Of a DNA stretch of 64,000 nt, positions 36,598 through 53,161 are shown in pieces. Every line of letters begins with the position of its first letter. Within the stretch, counting starts at the first letter, position 1. The stretch lies in the NCBI GenBank assembly GCA_902761575.1, contig CACWKU010000001.1, forward strand, positions 22,435 to 86,434. The letters are read 5' to 3'. Under the pieces are notes generated by a model. It saw only the letters and a list, made by a program, of their open reading frames with translations, was not told the origin of the DNA and did not search any database. Made by a program: the position numbers and the translations under genes. Source of the stretch: an uncultured bacterium (GTDB lineage: Bacteria; Verrucomicrobiota; Kiritimatiellia; RFP12; UBA3636).

Positions 36598-39500
36598 CTA
36601 CTTGATCCGGTAGACGTGCCGGCTGAAGCCGTCGAAGGCGTCGGAGAAGACGCCGCCCTTCGCCTGGAGGGTGCGGTTCTCGTAGAGGACCTCGACCGTG
36701 GTGTCCTGCGGGACGTCGTCCGGGAGGCGGAACGAGACCCGGGCGTTCGGGTGCGGGTTGACGTTGGCCGTGTAGATGCGGCGCTCGCTCCCGTGCCGGC
36801 GCGTGAGGCAGCGGATGTAGTTCTCGGTCTCGCTCGCGATGGCGCCGCCGCAGAGCTCGTCGGAGCAGAGGAAGTCGACGTTGTCCAGCAGCTCGCGGTT
36901 GATGTCCACGAGCGCGTCGTAGCAGCAGCGCGAGGTGGGCATGTTGACGAACCAGGAGAGGCCCGTCGCGCCGGCGGCGACACAGCCCCAGCACTGCGCG
37001 ACCTGCTCCTTGTAGGTCGGGATCCGCGGATGGAGCGAGTTCTCGCTCTCCATGAAGTACCAGCACGGCTTGCCGGGCGCGATGGAGCGCAGGACGTCGA
37101 CCTTCGAGACGACCATGTCGAGCGTGGTGCCGTCGACGGTCAGGTAGTAGTCGACCATCAGGATGTCGGTCGGGAGCCCCGCGAAGCGCCCGGAGATGCC
37201 GAGCCAGCAGTTGTTCATCTGCACGGGGTTGTAGGGGAAGAGGGCCTTCGTCCGCTTCATGAACGCCTTGCAGTCGTCGGCGTTGCGGTACTCGGGCTCG
37301 TCGAGGACGAGCCAGTTGATCACGTTCGGGCTGTCGAGCATGCCGTACATCTTCCGGCGCGACCAGTCGGTGACGGAGTTGTCCTCCCAGCGCCGGATCT
37401 CGCCCACGTCGTCGAGGGTCTGGCCCTCGCCGGTCCAGATCGTGAACTTCATGCCTTTCTGTGCCGCGTACGCGAGCGTCTTGCGGTTCATCTCGATGTC
37501 GCGGACGTTGAGGTTGTTCTGCAGGTTCAGGTACTTGAACCCGGCGTCGGCGAGGATGTCGACCGGACGCGAGGTGCCGTCGTCCATCGGCCCGTTCTCG
37601 CGGCCGATGAGGCACGGCGAGCTCATGAACACCTTCTCGCCGTCGTGGACGAGCGTGCGGGACCACTGGTTGATCTGCGTCGCGCCCTTCTTGAAGGGCA
37701 GCTTGCGGACCTCGGCCTTCCACTCGCGGCCGAGCGCGCGGACCGTGACGGCGTTGGTGCCGCAGGGCATCCCGGAGATGTCGATCGAGACCTGCTCGAA
37801 GCCGCCCTTGCCGTCCCACGCGCGGAAGTCGGCGGTCCTCTCCTCCATGTAGAAGTCGTAGTGGCCGAGGAGGAGCCCCTCGGGCGGGAGCGGATAGCCG
37901 CAGAGCGCGTTCTCGGCGGGCGTGAGCGGCGCCGTGCGCTCGGGCTTCGCGTGCGGGGTCGGCTTGCCGAGCGCGAAGTTCTCCGCGTCGCCGGACTTCG
38001 GCTTGTACTCCGTCGCGTAGGTCTTCGCGGGGTCGAAGCCGCCGGCCGGCGGGTCGACCATCTCGAGCTGCAGGTCGTCGAGCCAGATCGAGGCCTCGGT
38101 CGTGCGGTCGCGAAGGCCGGGGACGTCGAACCAGACGGGGCTGAAGATGCCGGGCGCGGGCAGGTTGGTCGTCGTGACCTCGTAGCGCGTCCATTCGGTC
38201 GTGAGGTCCACGATCCGGGCGTTGTCGGAGAGCTTCGCCTTGAACTGGACGCCGGGCTCGGACGCCTTCGCCCAGAAGGAGAGGACCGCGCTGCGGCCCT
38301 TCTGCGTGGGCGTGTTCCAGGCGAAGAAGTCGAAGCTGCGGACGAACGGCCCGATGCGCAGCCGGAGCGACTGCTTCCCGGAGTGCCTCTCGGCCGTGTC
38401 GACCATGAAGCACTTGAGGTACTTCTCCTTGTAGTCCTCGATCGAGACCTTCGACATCTCGCAGGAATTGCGGTTGCAGTAGTGCAGCGGCACGCCGTCG
38501 CCGTCGAACTCGAAGCCGGAGTTCGAGATCAGGTTCGGGCTGTCCTCGCCCTTGAGCGCGTAGATCGTGACGCGGCGCACCTCGAAGGGGCACTTGAAGT
38601 TCTCGATGCCGAGCGGGGCCCAGTGCGCGACGCCGTCGAAGCCGACGGTCTTCCTCGGCGTGGGCGCCGTGTAGTAGTTGCCCAGGACGCCGTTGAGGAA
38701 GAAGGCGTAGCCCATCATCGTCTCGCCGATCTTGCGACGCTCGAAGCGGACCGTGACCGGCTCGCCCTCCTTGAAGTTGGCGATCCAGGGGTAGGCGCTG
38801 CGCGTCGGCTGGTCGGCCACCGGCTGGTAGAGGGTCACCCCGTAGCCGTCGCTGCGGACGCCGAACGTGCCGTAGTCGCCGGTCATGACCGCCCAGTGGT
38901 AGTCGCCGTCCTTCGGGTCCTTGATCTCGCTCCACGCGGGGTAGACCGCGATCTCGGCCTCGGCCGCGAACTCGTCCGGCAGCTCGCCCTTCCACTGGAT
39001 GCCGTCGCCGGTGCCGCCGCTCGGGATGCGCACCGCGCCGTCCTTCACCTCGATGTCCTTCTGCGCGTGCCCGCGGAAGCTCCAGCGCTCGGCGAAGACC
39101 TTGGGCTCGGAGAAGTCGTCCTCGAAGATCGGGACCGAGAAGTCGGAGACCGGCCCGCCCGGCGCGCGGGCGGCCCCGGCGGCGTTCGCGGGCTCCTTCT
39201 TCTCGTAGCGCGGCCCCGCCTCGAGCGGCACGTCCGTCGCGCTTGCGTAGAACTTCCCCGTGACCTCCTCGTAGAGGCCGGCGACGCCGCCCTTCACGAC
39301 CGGGACGAAGCGCGCGAGCGGCTTTCCGTCCCGGTAGAACTCCGCCCCGTAGAGCGCGAGGTCGTAGCAGGCGTAGGACTTCACCGACCCGTCGTCGCAG
39401 GTCATCCCGAAGAACGAGACCGGGACCTTGCCGGCCGCGGTGCGCTCGCCCTCGAGCTTCATGTCGAAGCTGCCCCAGGTGACGTGCCGGCCGTCGTAGA

Positions 39501-39927
39501 CGATCGACACGCGGGTTCCGATGGCGGAGTCGTTCACCTCCTGGAGGCCGCAGTGGATCCACTTCTCGCGGCTCTTGCGGCCCAGGCTCGCGAACGTCTG
39601 GTAGGCCTGCGCCTCGTGCCCGCCGAGCGCGAGCTGGAAGAGGTCGCGGAAGCCCTCCGCGTCCTGCGCGTCCTCCTGGCCGAAGAAGACCGTCGTGTTC
39701 TTCGCGTGGTCGAACTTCCCGCCGAAGATCTGGTTGAACGGGCCGTCGAACCGGACGTCCATCCGGAACGTCGTCCCGGGCTGCGGCACGAGGTCGGTCT
39801 TCACGCAGCTGCCGTGCGTGGACTTGACGTATTCGACGCGGTAGTCGAAGTCCGCGGCGGCGGCGGACACGGCGGCGGCGGCGAGGCAGGCCGCGACGGC
39901 GCGGGCGTTTCGTTCGATGGCGTTCAT
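36598..39927 (-). CDS. Large secreted multidomain putative glycoside hydrolase (1109 aa): two LamG/DUF1080-like sandwiches, a CBM4/9-like domain and a TIM-barrel-like catalytic region. Paralog of 43645..46467.
   Basis: Track ORF. Signal peptide ..AVAACLAAAAVSAAAA. Shared blocks with the paralog include SNSGFEFDGDGVPLHYCNR, HSGKQSLRL, IWLDDLQLE, GMPCGTNAVTVRA, LVLDEPE, PYNPVQMNN, and the C-terminus EVLYENRTL..HVYRIK. The family is not recognised by me. Confidence 0.85.
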   Translation of the reverse strand: MNAIERNARAVAACLAAAAVSAAAADFDYRVEYVKSTHGSCVKTDLVPQPGTTFRMDVRFDGPFNQIFGGKFDHAKNTTVFFGQEDAQDAEGFRDLFQLALGGHEAQAYQTFASLGRKSREKWIHCGLQEVNDSAIGTRVSIVYDGRHVTWGSFDMKLEGERTAAGKVPVSFFGMTCDDGSVKSYACYDLALYGAEFYRDGKPLARFVPVVKGGVAGLYEEVTGKFYASATDVPLEAGPRYEKKEPANAAGAARAPGGPVSDFSVPIFEDDFSEPKVFAERWSFRGHAQKDIEVKDGAVRIPSGGTGDGIQWKGELPDEFAAEAEIAVYPAWSEIKDPKDGDYHWAVMTGDYGTFGVRSDGYGVTLYQPVADQPTRSAYPWIANFKEGEPVTVRFERRKIGETMMGYAFFLNGVLGNYYTAPTPRKTVGFDGVAHWAPLGIENFKCPFEVRRVTIYALKGEDSPNLISNSGFEFDGDGVPLHYCNRNSCEMSKVSIEDYKEKYLKCFMVDTAERHSGKQSLRLRIGPFVRSFDFFAWNTPTQKGRSAVLSFWAKASEPGVQFKAKLSDNARIVDLTTEWTRYEVTTTNLPAPGIFSPVWFDVPGLRDRTTEASIWLDDLQLEMVDPPAGGFDPAKTYATEYKPKSGDAENFALGKPTPHAKPERTAPLTPAENALCGYPLPPEGLLLGHYDFYMEERTADFRAWDGKGGFEQVSIDISGMPCGTNAVTVRALGREWKAEVRKLPFKKGATQINQWSRTLVHDGEKVFMSSPCLIGRENGPMDDGTSRPVDILADAGFKYLNLQNNLNVRDIEMNRKTLAYAAQKGMKFTIWTGEGQTLDDVGEIRRWEDNSVTDWSRRKMYGMLDSPNVINWLVLDEPEYRNADDCKAFMKRTKALFPYNPVQMNNCWLGISGRFAGLPTDILMVDYYLTVDGTTLDMVVSKVDVLRSIAPGKPCWYFMESENSLHPRIPTYKEQVAQCWGCVAAGATGLSWFVNMPTSRCCYDALVDINRELLDNVDFLCSDELCGGAIASETENYIRCLTRRHGSERRIYTANVNPHPNARVSFRLPDDVPQDTTVEVLYENRTLQAKGGVFSDAFDGFSRHVYRIK

Positions 39928-43644: not shown

Positions 43645-46467
43645 CTATGGCGCCGGATGGATGCGGTAGAGGTGGCGGTAGTGCCCGGGATAGAAGTCGG
43701 CGAAGGAGCCGTCCGCGAGCGGGAGGGTGCGGTTCTCGTAGAGGACCTCGACGGTGCCGGCGCGCGGGGCGTCGGGCGGGAGCGTGAAGGTCACGGCCTC
43801 GAGCGGGTCGGCGTCGATGTTGCACGAGAAGATATACCAGTCGTCGCCGCACTTCGAGGTGCGGTGGCGGAGGAGGTCCGGCCCGACAGAGGCGCGCGCG
43901 GGCTCGCAGACCTCCTCGCTCAGGATCTTGTCCTTGAGCTCCTGTGCCTCGCGGTTGAAGTCGACCATCGCGCGCCAGTTCGCCTCGGAGCCGACCATGT
44001 TCACGAACCACGTGACGCCGGAGCAGCCGGCGCAGATCGCGCCCCAGCACTGCGCGGTCTGCTCGGCGTAGGAGGGCTGCTTGTAGTGGATCGAGTTCAT
44101 CCCCGCGAGGAAGAACCAGCACGGGACGCCCTCGCGCGCCTTGAGCATCTCGTCGACGTTGCGCAGGATCTGGTCGACGGTGCCGAACTCGGCGGCGGTG
44201 AGATAGGCGTCGAGCATGAAGACGTCGGTCCGCAGGTCGGCGAACCGGCTCGGGAAGCCGAACGTCGTGTTGTTCATCTGCACCGGCGTGTAGGGATAGT
44301 GCCTCTTCTCCTCGATCATGAAGTCGCGCACCTCGTCGCTCGGGCGGGAGAGCTCGGGCTCGTCGGTCGCGACGCGGCTCACGATGTTGTCGAAGTCCTT
44401 CAGCCGCTCGCGCGTCTCGGCGCGCGTCTCGGTGGCGCCGTCGCGGTCGCCCGTCCAGAGGATGAAGTCCATCCCGATCTTCCGCCCGTACTCGAGCATC
44501 GCGATCGTCCGGTCGGTGCCCGCCTTGTCGGAGAAGGTGCAGACGTGCGCGTAGCGGAAGCCGCGCGCCTTCATCGCGTCGAGCATCGCGAAGCGGCCGT
44601 CCTCGCGGGGCGGGTTCTCGCGGACGACGAGGCAGTTGGCCGCCATCAGGACCTTCTCCCCTCCCCTCTCGAGGCAGCGCGCGAAGCGGTTGATCTGCGT
44701 GGCGCCCCTCCAGTACGGGAGCTTCACGACCTCGACGGGCCAGTCGCGGCCGTGCGCGCGGACCGTGACGGCGTTCGTGCCGCAGGGCATGCCGCGGATG
44801 TCGAGCGCGACCTCCTCGAGGCGGCCCTCCTCGTCCCAGATGCGCCAGCGCGCCTCGGGCTCGCGCATGTAGAAGTCGAGGCGGCCGAGGACGACCGGCT
44901 CCGGCGCGGCCTTCTTCGCGGCGGCGGCGCGCGCCCACTTCGCGTGGACCTCGGGCGGCAGGTCGAGCGAGGCCCAGAAGGCGTCGTCGCGGAAGTCGCC
45001 GTTCTTGGAGTAGGAGGTCCCGGGGCACTGCGGGTTCTCCCCGTGGCGGTCGTTGCGGCCGAGGTTGAAGAGCCAGTGCGCGTCCATGCCGCGCTCCGCG
45101 AGGTCCGCGAAGGGGACGGTGACGAGGTACTCGACCGCGCCGCCCGCGTCGCGCGCCTGCACGGTCCAGGAGCCGTCCCAGGTCTTGTCCTCGCCGTAGG
45201 CGTCGGCGCGGCAGCCGTTCGGCGCGCAGAAGAGGTGGTAGTTCTTCTTCTCCTCCGTCGGGCGCAGCAGCACCTCCACGGAGTCGCGGATGCAGATCTC
45301 GGTCGCGTCCTTGAAGTAGGGCGCGTGGCCGATCTCCGCGGGATCCTCGCCGAAGTTGCGGAAGCCGATGTAGAGGCGGTCGTCGTCGCACGCGAGGAAG
45401 GCCTGCGTGCGCTGGACCGGCTCCTCGCGCTTCACGTAGAACCGGCCGGCGTCGGCCGCGTGAGCCTCCCACGAGGAAAGATCGACGGTGGGCCGCACGC
45501 CCGCGGGGAGCTTTTTCACCCGAACGGTCGGCGGGCGCTCCGCCTTCTCCTGCCGCCCGAAGCGCGTGGCGTCGAGGTCGCTCGGACGCCACTGCGTCGC
45601 CGCGTCGCCGAACTCGAGCTGGAGGTCGTCGAGCCAGATGCAGCCGTCGTAGCGCGACGGATTTCGCACCTCGAACTGGACGGGGCTGAAGAGGCCTGGC
45701 GCCGGCATGTTCGTCGTCGCGAGCTCGTAGCGGGCCCACTCGGTCGAGAGCGCGAACGTGCGCCGCTCGGGGCCGAGCGACACGGTGATCTCCATCCCGG
45801 GCCTCTCCGCCTTCATCCAGCCCGAGAACACCCCGTGGGCACCCTTGCGCGTCGCCGTGCGCCACGGGTAGAACGACACGTTCGCGCAGTACGGCCGCAC
45901 CGCGAGGCGGAACGACTGCCTGCCCGAGTGCTTCTCCGCGGTGTCCACCGCGAAGCCCTTCGTCCACTCCTCGTACTCCGCGCCGCCGTAGTGGCGCCAG
46001 TCGAACGCGCCGCGGTTGCAGAAATAGGGCGGGACGCCGTCCTCGTCGAACTCGAAGCCGGAGTTCACGATGAGGTTCGGCGAGGCGTCGGCGTCCTCCG
46101 GGAGCGAGACCACGACGTCGTCGATCAGGCGCGGGGCCGCGCCCCGCGCCTCGAAGACGACGGCCGGGCTCTTCGCCCGCTCGCGCTCCTCGCGGCGAGG
46201 CGCGCGCTCCTCGCCCTCGACCCACTCCAGGACGTATTTCTCGGGCACGGCGCCGCGCCACGTCGCCTTCGCGCCGGGCGAGACGACGAGCCGGCCGCCC
46301 TCGCTGCGGATCTCGCCGTCCGCGCGCCAGTGCTCGGCGAGCGTCTGGCTCGTGGCGAAGTCGTCGGAGAAGACGGAGATCCCGGCCGCCGGAGCGGACG
46401 GCGCGGCCGCGGCCGCGAGCAGGACGAGGGCCGCCGGGAGGCGGGCGTTCCGGAAAGTCGCTTTCAT
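43645..46467 (-). CDS. Large secreted putative glycoside hydrolase (940 aa), paralog of 36598..39927 lacking the first N-terminal sandwich
   Basis: Track ORF. Signal peptide MKATFRNARLPAALVLLAAAAAPSAPAAG. Shares VNSGFEFDEDGVPPYFCNR, HSGRQSFRL, IWLDDLQLE, GMPCGTNAVTVRA, VATDEPE, PYTPVQMNN and EVLYENRTL with its paralog. Confidence 0.85.
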   Translation of the reverse strand: MKATFRNARLPAALVLLAAAAAPSAPAAGISVFSDDFATSQTLAEHWRADGEIRSEGGRLVVSPGAKATWRGAVPEKYVLEWVEGEERAPRREERERAKSPAVVFEARGAAPRLIDDVVVSLPEDADASPNLIVNSGFEFDEDGVPPYFCNRGAFDWRHYGGAEYEEWTKGFAVDTAEKHSGRQSFRLAVRPYCANVSFYPWRTATRKGAHGVFSGWMKAERPGMEITVSLGPERRTFALSTEWARYELATTNMPAPGLFSPVQFEVRNPSRYDGCIWLDDLQLEFGDAATQWRPSDLDATRFGRQEKAERPPTVRVKKLPAGVRPTVDLSSWEAHAADAGRFYVKREEPVQRTQAFLACDDDRLYIGFRNFGEDPAEIGHAPYFKDATEICIRDSVEVLLRPTEEKKNYHLFCAPNGCRADAYGEDKTWDGSWTVQARDAGGAVEYLVTVPFADLAERGMDAHWLFNLGRNDRHGENPQCPGTSYSKNGDFRDDAFWASLDLPPEVHAKWARAAAAKKAAPEPVVLGRLDFYMREPEARWRIWDEEGRLEEVALDIRGMPCGTNAVTVRAHGRDWPVEVVKLPYWRGATQINRFARCLERGGEKVLMAANCLVVRENPPREDGRFAMLDAMKARGFRYAHVCTFSDKAGTDRTIAMLEYGRKIGMDFILWTGDRDGATETRAETRERLKDFDNIVSRVATDEPELSRPSDEVRDFMIEEKRHYPYTPVQMNNTTFGFPSRFADLRTDVFMLDAYLTAAEFGTVDQILRNVDEMLKAREGVPCWFFLAGMNSIHYKQPSYAEQTAQCWGAICAGCSGVTWFVNMVGSEANWRAMVDFNREAQELKDKILSEEVCEPARASVGPDLLRHRTSKCGDDWYIFSCNIDADPLEAVTFTLPPDAPRAGTVEVLYENRTLPLADGSFADFYPGHYRHLYRIHPAP

Positions 46468-46497: not shown

Positions 46498-46554
46498 ATC
46501 CTACCACACCGTCCCGAGGGGCGGCTAGGTACGCCGGGGCCTGAAAGCGGTAAA
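46498..46554 (-). promoter_or_regulatory. Tripartite upstream cassette copy 9 (putative promoter of 43645..46467)
   Basis: TTTACC (46554-46549), N18, ACCTAG (46530-46525), N21, TAGGAT (46503-46498). Confidence 0.55.
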
Positions 46555-46566
46555 ACCCCGCCGGCG

Positions 46567-47484
46567 TCAGACGACGAACGCCTTCTCCCAGCGGCGCGCG
46601 GTGTGGTCGCGGAAGAAGACGCCGTAGGACGCGCCGCCGTACCACTCGACGACCGCCGAGCGGATCGCGTTGCCGCGGCGGTTCTCGAGCGAGGCGACGT
46701 CGAACTGCGTGACCGCGGAGCCGTCGATCCCGGAGATCTGGCGCAGGCAGTCCTTGCCGCCCCACTGGAAGTCTCCGACGTGGCAGTGGCCGTAGAAGTG
46801 CGCGACGACGTTCTCCGGCAGCGGCAGCAGCGTCCCCATCAGGTCCGAGGCGCGGTTGCCGCCCGGGAAGGCGTAGTGGCTCATCGTGAAGACGGGCTTG
46901 CCGAGCGCGGCGATCGCCGCTCGCGCCCGCTCCGCGGCTCCGGGGTCGGGGTAGTCGATCCGGTTCTCGCCGTCGGTCGCGCCGCCGTGGACGCAGAACC
47001 ACGAGCCGTCCGGCGCGGCGTGGTCGGAGAAGATCGCGAGCGCCAGGTCGCCGAAGTCCGCGACGAGCAGCCAGTCGCGGACGGAGGGCGTCGTGTGCCA
47101 CTGCGTCTCCCGCAGGACGCGCTCCCGCATCGGGATCGTGACGCGCCCGCTTCCGCGGCCGCCGCCCCACCGGTGGTAGTCGAACTCGTGGTTGCCCATC
47201 GCGTACCAGACCGGCGCGTCGACCCGCGCGAGGGCCTCGACCTGCATGTCGGCCATCTCGCGCAGGTGCGCCGGATCGGTCCCCTCGGTCGTGTCGCCGA
47301 GGTAGCACACGGCGTCCACGGGAAGGCGCAGCGAGAGGAAGTCCTCCACGCCCGCGTGCATGCAGCGGCGGGCGTTCGCCGGATCGCGCTGCTGCAGGTC
47401 GGAGATGACCCAGAGGCGCCGGCGCGCGGGACGGAGCAGGCCCGCGCGGAAGTCCGCGGGCGGCGTGGCGGGGTGCGCGCTCAT
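46567..47484 (-). CDS. Calcineurin-like metallophosphoesterase (305 aa)
   Basis: C-terminal part of track ORF 46567..47955, trimmed to the ATG at 47484, which overlaps the upstream stop as ATGA. Motifs: ISDLQ, YLGDTTEG, MGNHEF, GHCHVGD. Confidence 0.8.
   Translation of the reverse strand: MSAHPATPPADFRAGLLRPARRRLWVISDLQQRDPANARRCMHAGVEDFLSLRLPVDAVCYLGDTTEGTDPAHLREMADMQVEALARVDAPVWYAMGNHEFDYHRWGGGRGSGRVTIPMRERVLRETQWHTTPSVRDWLLVADFGDLALAIFSDHAAPDGSWFCVHGGATDGENRIDYPDPGAAERARAAIAALGKPVFTMSHYAFPGGNRASDLMGTLLPLPENVVAHFYGHCHVGDFQWGGKDCLRQISGIDGSAVTQFDVASLENRRGNAIRSAVVEWYGGASYGVFFRDHTARRWEKAFVV
47465..47476. repeat. Half-copy of the palindrome (GTGGCGGGGTGC) at the 5' end of the metallophosphoesterase CDS
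   Basis: The sense strand reads ATG AGC GCG CAC CCC GCC ACG (MSAHPAT), echoing the GAHPAT peptide of the full intragenic copy. Confidence 0.6.
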
Positions 47485-48212
47485 TTCGACTTCCTCCGGT
47501 AGAGCGCGGCCGGACGGTGCCCCGCGCCGCCGCGCACGCCGCCCGCCGGCTCGACGAACGGTCGGATCTTGCGGCGGAAGTTCGCGGGGTCGTCGGCCGA
47601 GAGCCCGAACGCCAGGAAGACCTCGCGCAGCTCGGCGAGCGTGAAGGTCCGTGGCACGAACGCGAAGGCCAGGTCGCGCGCGGCGTCCGGCCCGCGCAGC
47701 CGCGCGAGCGCGCCGGCGAGGATCTCGTCGTGGTCGAAGGCGAGCCGGCGCCCCGGCTCCGCGAGCTCGCGCCATTCGGCGGCCGCGGCGTCGTCGCCGC
47801 CGCGCACGCCCTCGGCGCCCGCCGTGACGATGCACAGATACGGGCAGGAGAGGATCCACCCGCGCGGGTCGCGCCCGGGCTTGCTCCGCGGCGCGAGCGG
47901 AACGAGCGCGCTCGCCTCGAGGCCCGTCTCCTCGCGCAGCTCGCGCCGCGCGCACTCCTCCAGCGACTCGCCGGGCTGGAGGAACCCGCCCGGCAGCGCC
48001 CAGCGCCCCTTGAAGGGATGCCCGCCGCGCCTCACGAGCAGGATCGCGGCGCGGCGGCGCTCCGGCGCGCGCCAGTTGCCCGTCGGCTCGCAGCGCAGCG
48101 TGAGCGCGACGATGTCCGCCGCGACCGACGGCCGCGGGTACTTCTCGAGACTGTAGTGGGCGAGGAAGCTCGCCTCGTCGTCCAACGCGGATGGCTTGTC
48201 GTTCTTCTTCAT
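47481..48212 (-). CDS. Nudix hydrolase fused to a C-terminal winged-helix-like domain (NrtR-like ADP-ribose-responsive regulator/ADPR pyrophosphatase candidate, 243 aa)
   Basis: Track ORF. A perfect Nudix box is present (GGFLQPGESLEECARRELREETGL), followed by a ~90-aa C-terminal extension. Lies directly downstream of the pncA-like gene. The NrtR assignment is inferred from architecture and context. Confidence 0.8.
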   Translation of the reverse strand: MKKNDKPSALDDEASFLAHYSLEKYPRPSVAADIVALTLRCEPTGNWRAPERRRAAILLVRRGGHPFKGRWALPGGFLQPGESLEECARRELREETGLEASALVPLAPRSKPGRDPRGWILSCPYLCIVTAGAEGVRGGDDAAAAEWRELAEPGRRLAFDHDEILAGALARLRGPDAARDLAFAFVPRTFTLAELREVFLAFGLSADDPANFRRKIRPFVEPAGGVRGGAGHRPAALYRRKSK

Positions 48213-48228
48213 CGGCGCAGGGCCTCCG

Positions 48229-48756
48229 CTAGACGATGTCGCACTGGATCGAGCCGAGGACCGCCAGCGCGTGGACCTTCAGCTCCGGCGTCACGTCCGC
48301 CGTGGCGTCCGCGTGGACGACGATCGTCGCGTCCGGGAACCGCGCGCGCAGGATCGCCGCGTTGGAGAGGACGCAGATCGACGTGCATACGCCGCAGAGG
48401 TGCAGCTCCGCCGGCTCGTCGCCGATCCGCGCCGCGAGCGCGTCCGCGAGCGCGAAGCTGCCGAACGTGGGCTTGTCCACGACGATCGCGCCCGGCGCCT
48501 CCGCGAAGGACCGCAGCGCCGGCGCGATCTGCCAGCCGTCCGTCCCCTCGAGGCAGTGCGGGACCGGGAGCTTGCGCCCCTCGAGCGTGGAGGTGTAGTT
48601 TTCGTGGTGCGTGTCGCGCGTGAACGCGACGGCGTCCCACCCGCCCTGCGCGAGCAGCGCGCGGACGGGCTCCGCCGACGCCGCGCATTCGGCGTTCCCG
48701 AGGCTTCCCGTGAGGAAGTCGTTCTGCATGTCGATGACGACGAGGATCTTTTTCAT
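48229..48756 (-). CDS. pncA: Nicotinamidase/isochorismatase-family cysteine hydrolase (175 aa)
   Basis: Track ORF 48229..48822 trimmed to the ATG at 48756 (MKKILVVIDMQNDF..). D/K/C triad context: VIDMQNDF, VDKPTFGSF, LHLCGVCTSICVL. The metal-site style TRDTHHENY..PHC..GTDG resembles Gram-positive-type PncA as I recall it. Confidence 0.7.
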   Translation of the reverse strand: MKKILVVIDMQNDFLTGSLGNAECAASAEPVRALLAQGGWDAVAFTRDTHHENYTSTLEGRKLPVPHCLEGTDGWQIAPALRSFAEAPGAIVVDKPTFGSFALADALAARIGDEPAELHLCGVCTSICVLSNAAILRARFPDATIVVHADATADVTPELKVHALAVLGSIQCDIV

Positions 48757-48810
48757 GGGTTGAAGGGGCTGTCCTTTCGTGGTTCGGGGTGGTTTGTGTT
48801 CAACGCGTAC

Positions 48811-48835
48811 TGATACTATCAAAAATGAATTATCA
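48811..48835. promoter_or_regulatory. Inverted repeat TGATA-N15-TATCA spanning the spacer and -10 of the pncA-operon promoter (candidate operator, for example for the Nudix-wHTH protein)
   Basis: Plus strand: TGATActatcaaaaatgaatTATCA. Its position overlaps the predicted RNA polymerase contact region. Confidence 0.35.
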
Positions 48836-48841
48836 GGTCAA
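48813..48841 (-). promoter_or_regulatory. Sigma70-like promoter of the pncA / Nudix-regulator / metallophosphoesterase operon
   Basis: Sense strand: TTGACC (48841-48836), 17 nt, TAGTAT (48818-48813). Confidence 0.55.
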
Positions 48842-48943
48842 GCAAGAAATTGTACCATCCGCTCCGTGCCCTCCCCGTGCCCCTCGCTCGCCCCGCGCCG
48901 GGTCGGCGGTGGTCGTAGCTCGCATCGCTCGGTCCCGAAAACC

Positions 48944-49027
48944 AACAAACTCCCGAGTGTTTATTCAACAAACTCCCGAACGATTCTTCAACAAACTCCC
49001 GGACGAAATTTCAACAAACTCCCGAAC
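48944..49027 (+). repeat. Four direct repeats of CAACAAACTCCCGR (iteron/operator-like), period 22-23 bp, ending 3 nt before the -35 of the ATPase promoter
   Basis: Repeat starts at 48944, 48966, 48989 and 49012. The 14-nt core is identical except for R. The spacers are AT-rich and not conserved. Confidence 0.8.
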
Positions 49028-49030
49028 AAC

Positions 49031-49059
49031 TTGACATTTCCTTAGATTTCTCATAGAAT
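49031..49059 (+). promoter_or_regulatory. Near-consensus sigma70 promoter of the DUF4143 ATPase gene; the -10 ends 8 nt before the ATG (leaderless-type)
   Basis: TTGACA (49031-49036), 17 nt, TAGAAT (49054-49059), ATG at 49068. Confidence 0.6.
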
Positions 49060-49067
49060 TCGCCACC

Positions 49068-50348
49068 ATGAAACGGTACGCGAAGAGAGTGGCGGATAGT
49101 TTGCTCGCCCGAAAGCTCCAAGGGCTAGGCGCCGTTCTCGTCCAAGGGGCCAAATGGTGCGGCAAGACAACGACCTGCGAACAGGTCGCCAAGAGCGTTC
49201 TGTACATGGGCGACCCGAAGAAGCGCAAGGAGAATCTGGAGATGGCGTCGATCGACGTCACATCGCTTCTGGAGGGTGCGAAGCCAAGGCTCATCGACGA
49301 ATGGCAGGTCGCACCCGTGTTTTGGGACGCGATCCGCCACGCGGTGGACCACGCCGACGGTCCGGGGCAGTTCATCCTGACCGGCAGCGTGGTTCCCCCG
49401 AAGACCGAGGAGAAGACCCATAGCGGGACGGGGCGGATCGCCCGTCTCACCATGCGCCCGATGACGCTCTGGGAAAGCGGTGAGTCGAGCGGAACGATCT
49501 CCCTCGCCGAACTGTTTTCGGGAACGGCCCCGGATAGCGCCCGCGCCATGGGGCGCGAACTGGAGGAGATCGCGTTCCTCGCCTGCCGGGGCGGATGGCC
49601 CCAGGCGGTCCTTCGGAAGGGCGACGTCGCCCTCGACCTCGCCTTCGACTACGTGGACTCGGTCGCGGACGAGGACATCTCGCGCGTGGACGATGTGAGG
49701 CGCGACCCCGCGCGCGCCCGACGCCTTCTGCGCTCCTACGCGCGGCTCCAGGGCTCTCAGGCGAACCTCAAGGCCATCAAGCTTGACATGGCGGGCGGCG
49801 GGATCGACGCCCCGGACGAGGACACCGTCGCCTCCTACCGCGGCGCCCTCGAAAAGCTCTTCGTCGTGGAAGACGTGCCGGCCTGGTGTCCGAACCTTCG
49901 GTGCCGGACCCCTATCCGCACGAGCGGCACGCGCTGCTTCGTCGACCCGTCCATCGCTGCGGCGTCCCTCGGTCTCGGCCCGGGCGGCCTGATGTCCGAC
50001 CTGACGACGTTCGGCTTTTTCTTCGAAACGCTGGCCGTCCGCGACCTTCGCGTCTACGCAGAAGCCCTGTCCGGGAGCGTCGCCCACTACCGTGACGCCT
50101 CCGGGCTCGAATGCGACGCCGTCATCCATCTCCGCAATGGCGCCTACGGTCTCGTCGAGGTCAAGCTCGGCGGCGACCGACTCGTTGCCGAAGGCGTGGA
50201 AACCCTCCTGGCCTTCTCAGGCAAGATCGACACCGACGCAATGAAGGCGCCGGCGTTCCGTATGGTCCTTACGGCCGTCGGCGACTATGCCTACCGTCGT
50301 CCGGCCGATGGCGTCTACGTCTGTCCCCTCTCCGCTCTCTGTCCCTGA
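49068..50348 (+). CDS. AAA+ ATPase of the AAA_14/DUF4143 type (426 aa)
   Basis: Track ORF. Walker A GAKWCGKTT. The C-terminal ..HYRDASGLECDAVIHLRNGAYGLVEVKLGG.. is typical of DUF4143 proteins. Preceded by a low-GC region with a near-consensus promoter and four direct repeats. Confidence 0.85.
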   Translation: MKRYAKRVADSLLARKLQGLGAVLVQGAKWCGKTTTCEQVAKSVLYMGDPKKRKENLEMASIDVTSLLEGAKPRLIDEWQVAPVFWDAIRHAVDHADGPGQFILTGSVVPPKTEEKTHSGTGRIARLTMRPMTLWESGESSGTISLAELFSGTAPDSARAMGRELEEIAFLACRGGWPQAVLRKGDVALDLAFDYVDSVADEDISRVDDVRRDPARARRLLRSYARLQGSQANLKAIKLDMAGGGIDAPDEDTVASYRGALEKLFVVEDVPAWCPNLRCRTPIRTSGTRCFVDPSIAAASLGLGPGGLMSDLTTFGFFFETLAVRDLRVYAEALSGSVAHYRDASGLECDAVIHLRNGAYGLVEVKLGGDRLVAEGVETLLAFSGKIDTDAMKAPAFRMVLTAVGDYAYRRPADGVYVCPLSALCP

Positions 50349-50362
50349 TCCTAGCTCCGCGC

Positions 50363-50389
50363 CCGCCCCGTCGCTTCGCGCCGGGGCGG
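50363..50389. terminator. Hairpin between the convergent ATPase and SBP-permease genes
   Basis: CCGCCCCG-N11-CGGGGCGG (8-bp GC stem). No clear U tract. Confidence 0.3.
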
Positions 50390-50409
50390 AGACGGTCGGA
50401 CGCGGCGCG

Positions 50410-53025
50410 CTAGTTCTTCGCGGGCGTGCCGGCGCCGGCGCCGGCCTTGAACTCCATCCTGCTCAGGCGCTGGAGCTGAAGGACGGTGAAGCCGATCAGC
50501 ATGGAGCCGAGCACCCAGGCCATCGCCGTGGCGGGACCGAAGCGCAGGTAGCCGAACGCCTCCCAGAAGATGTGCAGCCCGACGACCTCCGTCGCGCCGT
50601 ACGGCGTGTAGGGGCCGCCGCCCGTCATCGCGAGCACGAACTCGCCGCCGCTCTTCATCGCGCCGATCGCGGCGCCGACGAAGTTGATCAGGATCAGCGA
50701 CCGGATGCCCGGCAGCGCCACGTGGCGGATCTTGCCGAAGAGGCCCGAGCCCTCGAGCTCGGCCGCCTCGTAGAGGTCGTCCGGGACGGTCTTGAGGGCC
50801 GCGAGGTACACGAGGCAGCCCGGCCCCATGCCGGCCCAGATCGTCGGCAGGAGGCACAGCAGGAGCGCCGCCTTCGGCTCGGAGAGCCAGGCCTTCGCGA
50901 GGTCCGGATAGGAGGTGCCGAACACGTAGTTCACGGCGTGGACGCAGCCGTTGATCATCTGGTTGAGGGCGCCGTAGGGACCGTAGAAGCCCTTCCAGAG
51001 GAAGATCACGACAACGCCCGAGAGCACGGCGGGGAGGTAGTAGATCGTGCGGTAGAGGATCTTGCCGCGCGGCACCTCGGAGAGGAGCAGGGCGAGGACG
51101 ATCGGCGCGACGAACCCGAGCCCGAGGTAGAGCGCGGCGTATTCCGCGGAGACGAGCATCGCGTGCCAGAACTCGCCGCTGAAGAGGACGTTGGCGAAGT
51201 TGTCGAGCCCGACCCACTGCGAGTAGCCGCGGACGTTGTAGTCCTGGAACGCCATCGCCGTGCCGCGCGCGAGCGGCCAGTAGGACCAGACCGCGAGCGA
51301 GAGCAGCGCGGGGAGCAGCAGCAGGTAGGCGGCGCCGCGCCCGGAGTCGTTGCGGCGCGAGCCGCCCGCCGGGTCGCGCGGGACCGCGGCGGCGAAGGTG
51401 CGCATCACGCGGCGGAAGACGAAGAAGAACGCGAGCGCCATGCCGACGACGACGACCGCCGCGACGCGGCGGCGGAAGCGCATCTTCTCCGGCGGCACGC
51501 GCCCGATCATCTTCTCGTCGGCGAGCGCGACGCGCTCGCGCAGGATCGCGCCGATGCGCTCGCGCGCGGCGGGGACGTCGCCGCGGCGGATGGCGTCGCG
51601 CACGGCGCCGTCGTTGCGCGCCTGGTCGATGGCGCGGGACATGTAGGTGTAGACGAGCTGGCAGTTGCGGCCGTAGGGCTCGGGGACGCCGTTCTCGCGC
51701 GCGACGGCGGCGGCCTCGTCCCAGCCCTCGGGGCAGGCGAAGGCCTCCGGGTCGAAGCCCGCCTCGCGCAGCGCGGAGGGCGGGACGAAGCGGCCGAGGC
51801 CGTTCTCGACGTAGGTGCGCGTCCGGATCTTGCGCGCCTCGCGCCCGCCCATGAACCACGCCCACTCCCACGCGAGCTCCGGCACGCGCGGGTCGCGGTC
51901 GCCGCTGCCGGCGTAGACGCCGAGCATGCCGCAGTTGTACTCGCTGCCGCGGCGGCCGGACGGGCCGCGGGGCACCGGGCCGAAGCCGATCAGGTTCGGG
52001 TCGATCTGCTGGAAGGTGTCCTGGTCGAGGTAGGAGAACCACATCGCGGAGCGCTGGCCGGGCGTGAAGGCCTCGCCCGTGTCGACGCACGTCGGGAGCG
52101 TGCCGCAGGCGTTGGTGAAGGGCTCCAGGTAGAGGCGGCAGACGAACGCGTAGGCGTCCGCCGCCTCGGGCGAGTCGAACGCGCAGCGCCAGGCGCCGTC
52201 CGCGTCGCGCTTCACGGCTCGGCCGCCCCACGAGTAGAGGAACGAGAGCGTGCTCCAGCCCGTCTCGCCGGTCGGGAGCGAGAGGCCCCAGGTCTTGTCC
52301 GCCGGGTTCGTGACGCGGCGCGCCCAGTCGAGGAGCTCGTCCGCCGTCTCCGGCACGCGGTCCGGGAGCCCCGCCTCCGAGAAGACGTCGCGCCGGTAGA
52401 AGAGCGCCATCACGAGCTGCTTGTGCGGGACGGCGAAGGTGTGGAAGTGCTCCGCGCACGGCTCGCGGCCCCATTCGCGCAGGTAGGGGCAGTCCTCGCC
52501 CCACGGGCACTCGCGGCGGATGACGTCCCACAGCACGGGCGGGAGGCGGTCGCGCAGCTCCTCCTCGAAGCGCGGGCCGGTCCGGAGCAGGTCGAGATAC
52601 TCCGGGTTGGGGAGCCGGTGCGCCTCGCGCGTCGCCTCCGGCGAGAGGCCGTCCTCCCGCTCGAGCCAGGCGTCGAGCGGCATCAGGAAGCGGTTGCGGA
52701 CGTAGGTGTCGGACTGGCGGAAGTTCACGTACATCGCGTCCGGCGCGACGTCGCCCGCAATCTGCATGAGCGGGGTCGTGTCCATCGCGCGACCGCCGGG
52801 CAGGACGAGCCCGCCGGAGGACTCGAGCCGCGCCTCGGGGTGCAGCGCGCGGAAGGCGTCCGCGACGCGGACGGAGCATTCGCCCTCGACGCCCTGCGGC
52901 TCGCCGCTGGGGACGCCCCACGAGCGCACGACGGGCGGGCCGTCCTCCGCCGCCGCGAACGCGGCGCACGCGAGGAGGACGGCGATCGCCGGCAGGCGAC
53001 GGAAGGGACGGATCGTTGCGTTCAT
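50410..53025 (-). CDS. Fusion of a sugar-type ABC extracellular solute-binding protein and a MalF-like ABC permease in one 871-aa polypeptide
   Basis: Track ORF 50410..53115 trimmed to the ATG at 53025 (MNATIRPFRRLPAIAVLLACAAFAAA signal peptide). The N-terminal ~530 aa are SBP-like. A TM segment follows (RVAAVVVVGMALAFFFVF), then a permease core with an EAA loop (DLYEAAELEGSGLFGKIRHVALPGIR). Confidence 0.85.
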   Translation of the reverse strand: MNATIRPFRRLPAIAVLLACAAFAAAEDGPPVVRSWGVPSGEPQGVEGECSVRVADAFRALHPEARLESSGGLVLPGGRAMDTTPLMQIAGDVAPDAMYVNFRQSDTYVRNRFLMPLDAWLEREDGLSPEATREAHRLPNPEYLDLLRTGPRFEEELRDRLPPVLWDVIRRECPWGEDCPYLREWGREPCAEHFHTFAVPHKQLVMALFYRRDVFSEAGLPDRVPETADELLDWARRVTNPADKTWGLSLPTGETGWSTLSFLYSWGGRAVKRDADGAWRCAFDSPEAADAYAFVCRLYLEPFTNACGTLPTCVDTGEAFTPGQRSAMWFSYLDQDTFQQIDPNLIGFGPVPRGPSGRRGSEYNCGMLGVYAGSGDRDPRVPELAWEWAWFMGGREARKIRTRTYVENGLGRFVPPSALREAGFDPEAFACPEGWDEAAAVARENGVPEPYGRNCQLVYTYMSRAIDQARNDGAVRDAIRRGDVPAARERIGAILRERVALADEKMIGRVPPEKMRFRRRVAAVVVVGMALAFFFVFRRVMRTFAAAVPRDPAGGSRRNDSGRGAAYLLLLPALLSLAVWSYWPLARGTAMAFQDYNVRGYSQWVGLDNFANVLFSGEFWHAMLVSAEYAALYLGLGFVAPIVLALLLSEVPRGKILYRTIYYLPAVLSGVVVIFLWKGFYGPYGALNQMINGCVHAVNYVFGTSYPDLAKAWLSEPKAALLLCLLPTIWAGMGPGCLVYLAALKTVPDDLYEAAELEGSGLFGKIRHVALPGIRSLILINFVGAAIGAMKSGGEFVLAMTGGGPYTPYGATEVVGLHIFWEAFGYLRFGPATAMAWVLGSMLIGFTVLQLQRLSRMEFKAGAGAGTPAKN

Positions 53026-53105
53026 CGAAAGGGGTTCCAAGGGTTGTGTCGCGGTCCCGCGGCCGGCCCGGATCCGATCGCCCCGACCCGCCGAAGACGG
53101 AACCG

Positions 53106-53161
53106 ATGCTATCACCTCGCGCGCGTTGCGGGTAGGGACGGACCGCCCAAAAAGCGGTAAA
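53106..53161 (-). promoter_or_regulatory. Tripartite upstream cassette copy 10 (putative promoter of the SBP-permease fusion gene)
   Basis: TTTACC (53161-53156), N18, CCCTAC (53137-53132), N20, TAGCAT (53111-53106). Confidence 0.55.

What the first reader, a model, noticed from the sequence alone, without database searches (positions are those of the whole stretch)
46567..48841. pncA / Nudix-wHTH / metallophosphoesterase operon: a compact NAD-salvage and ADP-ribose module with a promoter-embedded palindrome
Three genes are tightly linked: 17 nt between the first two, then an ATGA overlap at 47481-47484. They lie behind TTGACC-17-TAGTAT. The first gene is a nicotinamidase-like cysteine hydrolase. 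The second is a Nudix protein with a perfect Nudix box plus a C-terminal extension, which is the NrtR architecture (NrtR proteins are ADP-ribose-sensing repressors of NAD genes). The third is a calcineurin-type metallophosphoesterase; some members of that superfamily are Mn-dependent ADP-ribose pyrophosphatases. The inverted repeat TGATA-N15-TATCA (48811-48835) overlaps the -10 and spacer and is a plausible operator. Inclusion of a metallophosphoesterase in an NrtR-type unit is not something I know to be described.
Basis: partly seen in the sequence, partly recalled or inferred. Interest (0 to 1): 0.5.

Follow-up and report, generated by a model that had tools for sequence, protein, structure and literature searches.

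The report
NrtR-controlled nicotinamide salvage operon, plus passenger phosphoesterase
This is an ordinary, self-repressing NAD-salvage unit (nicotinamidase plus the ADP-ribose-sensing repressor NrtR) in a rumen Kiritimatiellae-like bacterium, into whose tail a phosphoesterase gene of unknown substrate was recently inserted.

Summary
Three co-directional minus-strand genes follow TTGACC-17-TAGTAT: pncA (48756-48229), nrtR (48212-47481) and a metallophosphoesterase, MPE (47484-46567). The pncA-nrtR gap is 16 nt, not 17, and nrtR-MPE overlap by ATGA.

The NAD reading of the first two genes is well supported. Gene 2 passes Pfam's NrtR wHTH model. nrtR-pncA adjacency recurs in about 50 of 80 homologous loci.

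The operator needs redefining. The conserved element is the 11-bp palindrome TGATAgTATCA (48821-48811) over the extended -10. The same motif lies upstream of nrtR in 50 of 67 homologous loci, about 55-fold enriched.

The MPE is not a conserved member of the unit. Of 90 loci carrying this MPE family, only four near-identical ones have nrtR upstream, and no neighbour family recurs. Relatives show an ancestral ARH-pncA-nrtR operon (ARH = ADP-ribosylglycohydrolase). The MPE entered it as a precise gene-sized insertion of about 930 bp.

The MPE shares the unusual D-x-Q metal motif of ADP-ribose diphosphatases (ADPRibase-Mn). It lacks that family's specific structural elements and any significant sequence similarity to it.

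Verdict: a new member of a known kind. An ADP-ribose role for the MPE remains possible but unsupported.

The parts
48836..48841 (-). -35 hexamer TTGACC
   Evidence: TTGAC is conserved in the relatives L010, L094, L096, L097, L099 and L011, while sequence further upstream is unrelated.
48813..48821 (-). Extended -10 element: TG at 48821-48820 and TAGTAT at 48818-48813
   Evidence: 17-nt spacer, TG before the hexamer. Conserved in relatives.
48811..48821 (.). Core NrtR operator, the 11-bp palindrome TGATAgTATCA, overlapping the -10
   Evidence: Unique in the window. It was the top palindrome in a de novo count upstream of nrtR homologues. It is present at up to 1 mismatch in 50 of 67 loci, 5.3 per kb against 0.096 per kb elsewhere. 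It is conserved in close relatives.
48831..48835 (-). Upstream half-site TGATA abutting the -35, 14 bp upstream of the core's TGATA.
   Evidence: TGATA (TCATA in L097) is kept in L010, L094, L096, L097 and L099 while the 9-nt spacer varies. The same 14-bp phasing of tandem sites occurs in Clostridia loci.
48794..48804 (-). Conserved 5'-UTR element GTTGAACACAA, role unknown
   Evidence: Invariant in window, L010, L094, L096, L099 and in L011 (nrtR protein only 71% identical, and nrtR rather than pncA is the downstream gene there). L097 has a diverged form, GTCGAACGCAA. No Rfam match.
48229..48756 (-). pncA, nicotinamidase (175 aa)
   Evidence: Pfam Isochorismatase 2.8e-25. Best solved relatives include nicotinamidases and pyrazinamidases 1ilw, 3o90 and 3pl1. 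By sequence: D9/K95/C128 triad and the D48-x-H50...H67 metal site. Adjacent to nrtR in about 50 of 80 homologous loci.
47481..48212 (-). nrtR, Nudix-wHTH repressor (243 aa) with an intact Nudix box
   Evidence: NUDIX plus NrtR_WHD (PF21906, 38.8 bits against gathering score 27). PDB relatives 2fml, 5bs6 and 3gz5. Alignment A1 invariants.
47493..47497 (-). GGAGG Shine-Dalgarno for the MPE, formed by the family-conserved R-R-K codons at the nrtR 3' end
   Evidence: Read from the sequence. RRK conservation is seen in A1.
46567..47484 (-). Metallophosphoesterase (305 aa), D-L-Q type, substrate unknown
46556..47489 (-). Gene-sized insertion carrying the MPE. It replaces the last two codons, the stop and about 10 nt after nrtR.
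   Evidence: L094, L095 and L096 lack it while both flanks align. Other MPE loci share only the coding sequence.

Best explanation
An NrtR-autoregulated nicotinamide-salvage operon with a recently acquired passenger gene.

Shown:
- A sigma-70-type promoter with an extended -10 precedes pncA-nrtR-MPE, with no room for another promoter before the MPE (ATGA overlap).
- Gene 2 has the NrtR domain architecture.
- An 11-bp palindrome, TGATAgTATCA, lies exactly over the -10. A phased half-site lies next to the -35. The same motif is conserved upstream of nrtR homologues across Clostridia and relatives in the PVC group (the Planctomycetes-Verrucomicrobia-Chlamydiae superphylum).

Inferred from the characterised family (PMC2330246, PMC6800001):
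- An NrtR dimer occupies the palindrome and blocks RNA polymerase.
- ADP-ribose released by NAD-consuming enzymes binds the Nudix domain and releases NrtR.
- The operon is then derepressed, and PncA converts the co-released nicotinamide to nicotinate for Preiss-Handler salvage.
- Because the Nudix box is intact, this NrtR may itself hydrolyse ADP-ribose and reset the signal.

The MPE:
- It is expressed from this promoter only because a gene-sized segment of about 930 bp was inserted at the 3' end of nrtR in one narrow clade. The ancestral operon was ARH-pncA-nrtR.
- It is an apparently active dinuclear phosphoesterase (all metal ligands invariant) of unknown substrate.
- It is most likely not an obligate part of NAD or ADP-ribose metabolism.
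For: - Domains.
- Promoter.
- Operator. Fifty of 67 loci carry it, about 55-fold enriched.
- Phylogenetic footprint in close relatives.
- nrtR-pncA adjacency in about 50 of 80 genome loci.
- Known arrangements of this kind (C. acetobutylicum nrtR-pncA, V. parahaemolyticus pncA-nrtR, Blastopirellula pncB-nrtR-pncA, Streptomyces nrtR-draG) and the ADPR anti-repressor mechanism: PMC2330246.
- MPE insertion.
- By nrtR nucleotide identity the MPE-bearing loci form the tightest group (93-97%), with the MPE-less L094 (91%) and L096 (87%) outside it.
- MPE family elsewhere: nine look-ups of individual MPE homologues, down to 90% identity, found no NAD genes nearby.
- Only 4 of 90 loci have nrtR upstream.
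- No recurrent same-strand neighbour family.
Against: - No experiment supports any step: DNA binding, the effector and co-transcription are all inferred.
- pncB and other NAD genes are not in the window, so the regulon is undefined.
- The nrtR-MPE junction has survived three different upstream configurations (ARH-pncA-, pncA- and none). The MPE also shares the D-x-Q motif with ADP-ribose diphosphatases. Both could mean it is more than a passenger.
- NCBIfam's NrtR equivalog model scores only 94.6 bits against a cutoff of 400.
Confidence: 0.8

Rival explanations
1. One reading: the MPE is a functionally integrated member of the module. It would be a Mn-dependent hydrolase of ADP-ribose or a related NAD-derived nucleotide, recruited into the NrtR regulon to clear the ADP-ribose that ARH and NAD-consuming enzymes release.
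For: - The ATGA overlap gives obligatory co-expression with nrtR.
- Motif I is an invariant D-L-Q. D[V/I]Q is the hallmark of the ADPRibase-Mn family (PMC4334965).
- In L099 and L100 the operon is ARH-pncA-nrtR-MPE, which is fully ADP-ribose themed.
- The junction persists across four operon variants.
- One distant homologue (L161) sits beside a plain Nudix hydrolase.
Against: - Eighty-six of 90 family loci have no nrtR or pncA nearby, and no NAD-related neighbour family recurs.
- Homologues 88-90% identical sit in unrelated contexts.
- Several neighbours are glycosidases or sugar transporters.
- The model has no s2s3 hairpin between strand 1 and helix 1 and no h7h8 helical insert. These are the elements that carry the ADP-ribose-preference residues (PMC3407115, PMC4334965).
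- NrtR's own intact Nudix box could already hydrolyse ADP-ribose.
Confidence: 0.17
2. The operator is the reader's 25-bp inverted repeat TGATA-N15-TATCA, bound as one unit by a single NrtR dimer.
For: Both arms are conserved in close relatives while the spacer varies. The repeat is unique in the window.
Against: - Across 67 homologous loci the conserved spacing is N1, not N15. TGATA-N1-TATCA was the top palindrome, and N15 appeared only for a different half-site, TGTTA.
- The inner TGATA that completes the 11-bp palindrome is equally conserved.
- L011 keeps the core but not the upstream arm.
- Tandem sites with a 14-bp period are common in Clostridia.
Confidence: 0.08
3. The Nudix-wHTH protein is a sugar-responsive regulator of the AraR/XylR-like branch that controls the neighbouring glycan-degradation genes rather than NAD metabolism.
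For: - 5bs6 (Bacteroides AraR) is a good PDB hit (3.1e-18).
- There is a weak AraR_C Pfam hit.
- The window is rich in carbohydrate genes.
Against: - AraR_C scores 16.7 bits, below its 23.8 cutoff, whereas NrtR_WHD passes.
- The conserved partner across about 50 loci is pncA, and in close relatives an ADP-ribosylglycohydrolase.
- The only operator copy in 64 kb is in front of pncA.
Confidence: 0.03

Closest known systems
NrtR regulons with pncA (Rodionov et al. [quoted passage not shown]
   Same: - A Nudix-wHTH regulator sits next to a nicotinamidase.
- A palindromic operator overlaps the promoter.
- The unit is autoregulated.
- The predicted ADP-ribose derepression logic is the same.
   Different: - The host lineage is a rumen Kiritimatiellae-like bacterium.
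- The operator core is TG-N7-CA (TGATAnTATCA), not the common GT-N7-AC, the mycobacterial GTTTTCGA-N7-TCGAAAAC, or the streptococcal motif (PMC6800001).
- The Nudix box is fully intact.
- An extra 3' MPE gene is present.
Streptomyces nrtR1-draG locus (PMC2330246)
   Same: Close relatives of this window (L094, L095, L096, L099, L100) place an ADP-ribosylglycohydrolase under the same NrtR promoter.
   Different: The window itself has lost the ARH gene. In the relatives the ARH is the first gene of the operon, and pncA is present as well.
[quoted passage not shown]
   Same: - Dinuclear metallophosphoesterase fold.
- Motif I has Gln in place of His (D-L-Q here, D[V/I]Q there).
- 2NXF is the best, though weak, profile hit in the PDB.
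   Different: - No significant sequence similarity (E = 0.024 over 52 residues).
- The predicted structure lacks the family-specific s2s3 hairpin and h7h8 insert that shape the ADP-ribose site.
- Fold scores are equal to those for purple acid phosphatase, Rv0805, GpdQ and Lmo2642.

Membership tests
NrtR (Nudix-related transcriptional regulator) | N-terminal Nudix-fold effector domain | tested here: met
   PF00293 at 9.6e-21, residues 54-163. PDB hits 2fml and 3gz5.
NrtR (Nudix-related transcriptional regulator) | C-terminal NrtR-type winged-helix DNA-binding domain | tested here: met
   PF21906 NrtR_WHD at 38.8 bits against a gathering score of 27, residues 182-239. The motifs LAFDH, FTL and NFRRK are invariant in A1.
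NrtR (Nudix-related transcriptional regulator) | Chromosomal linkage to NAD metabolism genes | tested here: met
   pncA is adjacent here and in about 50 of 80 homologous genome loci. An ADP-ribosylglycohydrolase is present in close relatives.
NrtR (Nudix-related transcriptional regulator) | Conserved palindromic operator at the promoter of the regulated or own operon | tested here: met
   TGATAnTATCA lies over the -10. It is found in 50 of 67 loci upstream of nrtR, about 55-fold enriched.
NrtR (Nudix-related transcriptional regulator) | ADP-ribose-dependent release from DNA | not testable with these tools
   Needs EMSA or SPR with purified protein.
NrtR (Nudix-related transcriptional regulator) | Equivalog of the NCBIfam-curated NrtR (NF050029) | tested here: not met
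   94.6 bits against a cutoff of 400. It is a member at the family level, not of that curated orthologous group.
Nicotinamidase PncA (isochorismatase superfamily) | Isochorismatase-like fold with the Asp-Lys-Cys catalytic triad | tested here: met
   PF00857 at 2.8e-25. D9, K95 and C128 align with the corresponding positions of 6a8l and 5zn8.
Nicotinamidase PncA (isochorismatase superfamily) | Metal-binding D-x-H...H site that distinguishes nicotinamidases | tested here: met
   D48-T-H50 and H67 (within PVPHC) are read from the sequence and align to the DSH...PPH region of 6a8l. That this pattern defines nicotinamidases is my own knowledge.
Nicotinamidase PncA (isochorismatase superfamily) | Nicotinamide deamidase activity | not testable with these tools
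   Needs an enzyme assay.
ADPRibase-Mn-like metallophosphoesterases | Dinuclear MPE fold with the five metal-binding motifs | tested here: met
ADPRibase-Mn-like metallophosphoesterases | Motif I is D[V/I]Q instead of D-x-H (PMC4334965) | tested here: met
   D29-L30-Q31 is invariant in 52 homologues. The middle residue is Leu rather than Val or Ile.
ADPRibase-Mn-like metallophosphoesterases | Family-unique elements s2s3 hairpin, h2 and the h7h8 helical insert around the active-site entrance (PMC3407115) | tested here: not met
   In the model, strand 22-27 is followed directly by helix 35-51 with no hairpin. The 107-197 region is mostly short strands rather than a large helical insert. This was judged from secondary structure only, not from a residue-level superposition.
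ADPRibase-Mn-like metallophosphoesterases | Significant sequence similarity to family members | tested here: not met
   phmmer found no PDB hit at E<10. The profile gave E = 0.024, 16.8 bits, over 52 residues only.
ADPRibase-Mn-like metallophosphoesterases | Mn2+-dependent ADP-ribose or CDP-alcohol hydrolysis | not testable with these tools
   Needs an enzyme assay.

The most novel reading that the evidence does not exclude
The MPE would represent an uncharacterised bacterial family of D-x-Q dinuclear phosphoesterases acting on ADP-ribose or another NAD-breakdown nucleotide. One rumen Kiritimatiellae clade would have captured it into the NrtR regulon. That would create (in L099 and L100) a four-gene ARH-PncA-NrtR-MPE operon that senses ADP-ribose and disposes of both NAD cleavage products.
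Probability: 0.15. Interest if true: 0.5.

Novelty: new member of a known kind. Interest (0 to 1): 0.3.

Why it matters
- It extends the NrtR/PncA salvage paradigm to a poorly studied rumen PVC lineage.
- It gives a concrete, testable operator (TGATAnTATCA, with 14-bp phased sites) shared with a large clade of rumen Clostridia NrtRs. This could seed regulon reconstruction in those genomes.
- The strain-level mosaic (ARH present or absent, pncA present or absent, MPE present or absent, all behind one conserved NrtR promoter) shows how a regulated operon gains and loses cargo.
- If the MPE does act on ADP-ribose, it would assign a function to a family of at least 100 unannotated proteins. On present evidence that is unlikely.

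Tried and rejected
- Sequence search of the MPE against the PDB found nothing at E<10. The profile search gave only a marginal 2nxf hit.
- NCBIfam and PADLOC found no family for the MPE.
- Rfam found no riboswitch or RNA in the leader or intergenic region.
- No supplementary tables of Rodionov 2008 were held. I therefore could not compare the motif directly with the catalogued Firmicutes-2a/2b NrtR profiles or with RegPrecise.
- I looked for a canonical intrinsic terminator after the MPE and found none on the minus strand. There is only a bulged GC hairpin without a T-run at about 46530-46566, which is inherited from the ancestral nrtR-downstream spacer.
- I rejected the AraR-like reading and the single 25-bp operator reading (see the rival explanations).
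- The Pfam survey of same-strand neighbours used crude ORF calls, so some neighbours in high-GC contigs may be spurious. Its negative result agrees with the nine precomputed MPE gene contexts.
Full report
**1. What is there**

On the minus strand, three ORFs with coding-type GC3 (0.84-0.95) follow an AT-rich island (49-55% GC against 70-79% around it).

- pncA runs 48756-48229, nrtR 48212-47481 and a metallophosphoesterase (MPE) 47484-46567.
- The nrtR stop and the MPE start overlap as ATGA at 47484-47481.
- The promoter is TTGACC-17-TAGTAT (48841-48813) with a TG extended -10. It is one of two sigma-70-like sites in 2.9 kb, against 0.1 expected. The other drives the divergent gene at 49068.

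**2. The proteins**

Gene 1:
- It is an isochorismatase-fold protein (2.8e-25).
- Its solved relatives include nicotinamidases and pyrazinamidases (1ilw, 3o90, 3pl1).
- It carries D9/K95/C128 and the D48-x-H50...H67 metal site.

Gene 2:
- It has NUDIX plus the NrtR winged-helix domain (PF21906, 38.8 bits against gathering score 27).
- It matches 2fml, AraR 5bs6 and Shewanella NrtR 3gz5.
- Its Nudix box is perfect and invariant among homologues.
- It falls far below NCBIfam's equivalog cutoff (94.6 against 400). It is therefore a family member, not an ortholog of the curated NrtR.

Gene 3:
- It matches only the generic Metallophos model.
- It has no PDB sequence relative.

**3. The operator**

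I counted all 5- and 6-mer inverted repeats with 0-21 nt spacers in the 300 nt upstream of nrtR homologues. The loci came from 80 genome contigs, mostly rumen Clostridia plus a few PVC bacteria.

- The clear winner was TGATA-N1-TATCA.
- Allowing one mismatch, 50 of 67 loci have it within about 120 nt of the nrtR start. That is 5.3 per kb, against 0.096 per kb elsewhere in the same loci.
- The extended consensus is TTATTa.c.tT.TGATATTATCAta.Tg.AAATAA.
- Tandem copies with a 14-bp period are frequent.

The window carries an exact copy, TGATAgTATCA, at 48821-48811. It sits squarely over the TG and -10 and is the only copy in 64 kb.

One is this palindrome's right arm. The other is a second TGATA at 48835-48831, 14 bp upstream of the core's TGATA and abutting the -35.

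Alignment of the promoter with close relatives supports both elements (L010, L094, L096, L097, L099).
- Everything upstream of the -35 is unrelated.
- The -35, the upstream TGATA, the core palindrome and the leader are conserved.
- The 9-nt spacer between the two TGATA differs in every lineage.
- L011 (nrtR protein 71% identical) keeps the core (TGTTAgTATCA over TAGTAT) but not the upstream half-site.

The operator idea is therefore right, but its anatomy is a core palindrome plus a phased half-site. Published NrtR motifs differ between lineages (21-bp palindromes with core GT-N7-AC, PMC2330246; GTTTTCGA-N7-TCGAAAAC in mycobacteria, PMC6800001). I could not access the catalogued Clostridial profiles.

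**4. pncA-nrtR is a conserved pair**

tblastn of the window's PncA against the 80 nrtR loci finds a 40-46% identical PncA next to nrtR in about 50 of them. It usually lies immediately downstream. Arrangements of this type were described in 2008 (PMC2330246).

**5. The MPE is a recent insertion**

- Nine look-ups of individual MPE homologues (90% down to 44% identity) showed unrelated neighbourhoods. These included DUF386 with GH42, a radical-SAM gene, a methyltransferase, an alpha-fucosidase, and AraR/GH2/sugar ABC genes.
- In 90 loci carrying the family, only four also have nrtR upstream. All four have an MPE at least 94% identical to the window's.
- A Pfam survey of 119 same-strand neighbours found no family present more than four times.

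Close relatives of the window reveal a mosaic behind the same promoter:

| Locus | Gene order |
|---|---|
| L094, L095 | ARH-pncA-nrtR |
| L096 | ARH-nrtR |
| L099, L100 | ARH-pncA-nrtR-MPE |
| window, L010 | pncA-nrtR-MPE |
| L097 | nrtR-MPE |

- ARH here is a DraG/Tri1-like ADP-ribosylglycohydrolase.
- By nrtR nucleotide identity the MPE-bearing loci form the tightest group (93-97%). The MPE-less L094 (91%) and L096 (87%) lie outside it. This indicates a single insertion into an ancestral ARH-pncA-nrtR operon, followed by loss of ARH, or of ARH and pncA.
- The junctions are precise. Window 47489-46556 replaces about 20 nt of L094, namely the last two codons, the stop and about 10 nt. The ancestral spacer (TTTTACCGC...) resumes right after the insertion.
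- Other MPE loci share only the coding sequence.
- The MPE's Shine-Dalgarno GGAGG is supplied by the conserved R-R-K codons of nrtR.

**6. What the MPE might do**

- All canonical metal ligands are invariant, with Gln replacing the first His (D29-L-Q31).
- The AlphaFold model is confident (pLDDT 93.7).
- The best profile-sequence hit is 2nxf, but only at E = 0.024 over 52 residues.
- D[V/I]Q is a hallmark of the ADPRibase-Mn family (PMC4334965). This is a real resemblance.
- However, the family's unique s2s3 hairpin and h7h8 insert carry the ADP-ribose-preference residues (PMC3407115, PMC4334965). They have no counterpart in the model's secondary structure.
- Membership is therefore not met. 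An ADP-ribose-type activity is neither shown nor excluded.

**7. Mechanism**

Best explanation (confidence about 0.8 for the pncA-nrtR part):
- NrtR binds the -10 palindrome and represses its own operon.
- ADP-ribose from NAD consumption relieves the repression.
- PncA recycles nicotinamide.
- NrtR's intact Nudix box may hydrolyse the inducer.
- The MPE rides along as inserted cargo.

The rival view, that the MPE is an integrated ADP-ribose hydrolase, gets about 0.17.

**8. Novelty and score**

The pncA-NrtR unit is a new member of a known kind. The operator consensus for this Clostridia/PVC clade and the cargo-swapping mosaic are useful but unsurprising. Interest is 0.3.

Noticed in passing
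window 49068-50348 (+), with 48943-49027: A divergent AAA_14/DUF4143 ATPase gene matches the PADLOC candidate defence family PDC-S01 (2.5e-57). It has its own near-consensus promoter (TTGACA-17-TAGAAT, 49031-49059). Four 23-bp-period direct repeats of CAACAAACTCCCG precede that promoter. The whole segment of about 1.5 kb (48852-50409) is absent from the closest relative, L010, where the SBP-permease gene abuts the pncA promoter.
   Followed up: partly
window 48794-48804 (-): The leader element GTTGAACACAA, just downstream of the operator, is invariant in most relatives. This includes L011, where nrtR rather than pncA is the downstream gene. L097 has the diverged form GTCGAACGCAA. There is no Rfam match and the role is unknown.
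   Followed up: partly
L094 2519-3391; L099 1793-2662; L096 3073-3945: A DraG/Tri1-like ADP-ribosylglycohydrolase is the first gene of the NrtR operon in close relatives but is missing from the window. In L096 the gene caller split it into two ORFs, so it may be disrupted there.
   Followed up: partly
window 43645-46467 (-) and 36598-39927 (-): A 940-aa protein with an N-terminus that looks like a signal peptide lies immediately downstream of the MPE. It has no Pfam, NCBIfam or PADLOC match, and it has a 42-47% identical paralogue 6 kb away. In L094 and L095 its orthologue directly follows nrtR.
   Followed up: partly
window 50410-53115 (-): A single 901-aa ORF combines an extracellular solute-binding domain (SBP_bac_1) with an ABC permease domain (BPD_transp_1). 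This is an unusual fusion.
   Followed up: no
L161 1417-1977: A distant MPE homologue (39% identity) lies directly downstream of a plain 186-aa Nudix hydrolase. This is the only other Nudix-MPE adjacency among about 85 independent contexts.
   Followed up: no
L001 4516-8061; L090 4001-6193; L091 1-8379: Several MPE homologues sit next to glycoside hydrolases (GH42 with DUF386, GH29 alpha-fucosidase, GH2) or sugar ABC transporters. This hints at a carbohydrate-related role for the family.
   Followed up: partly
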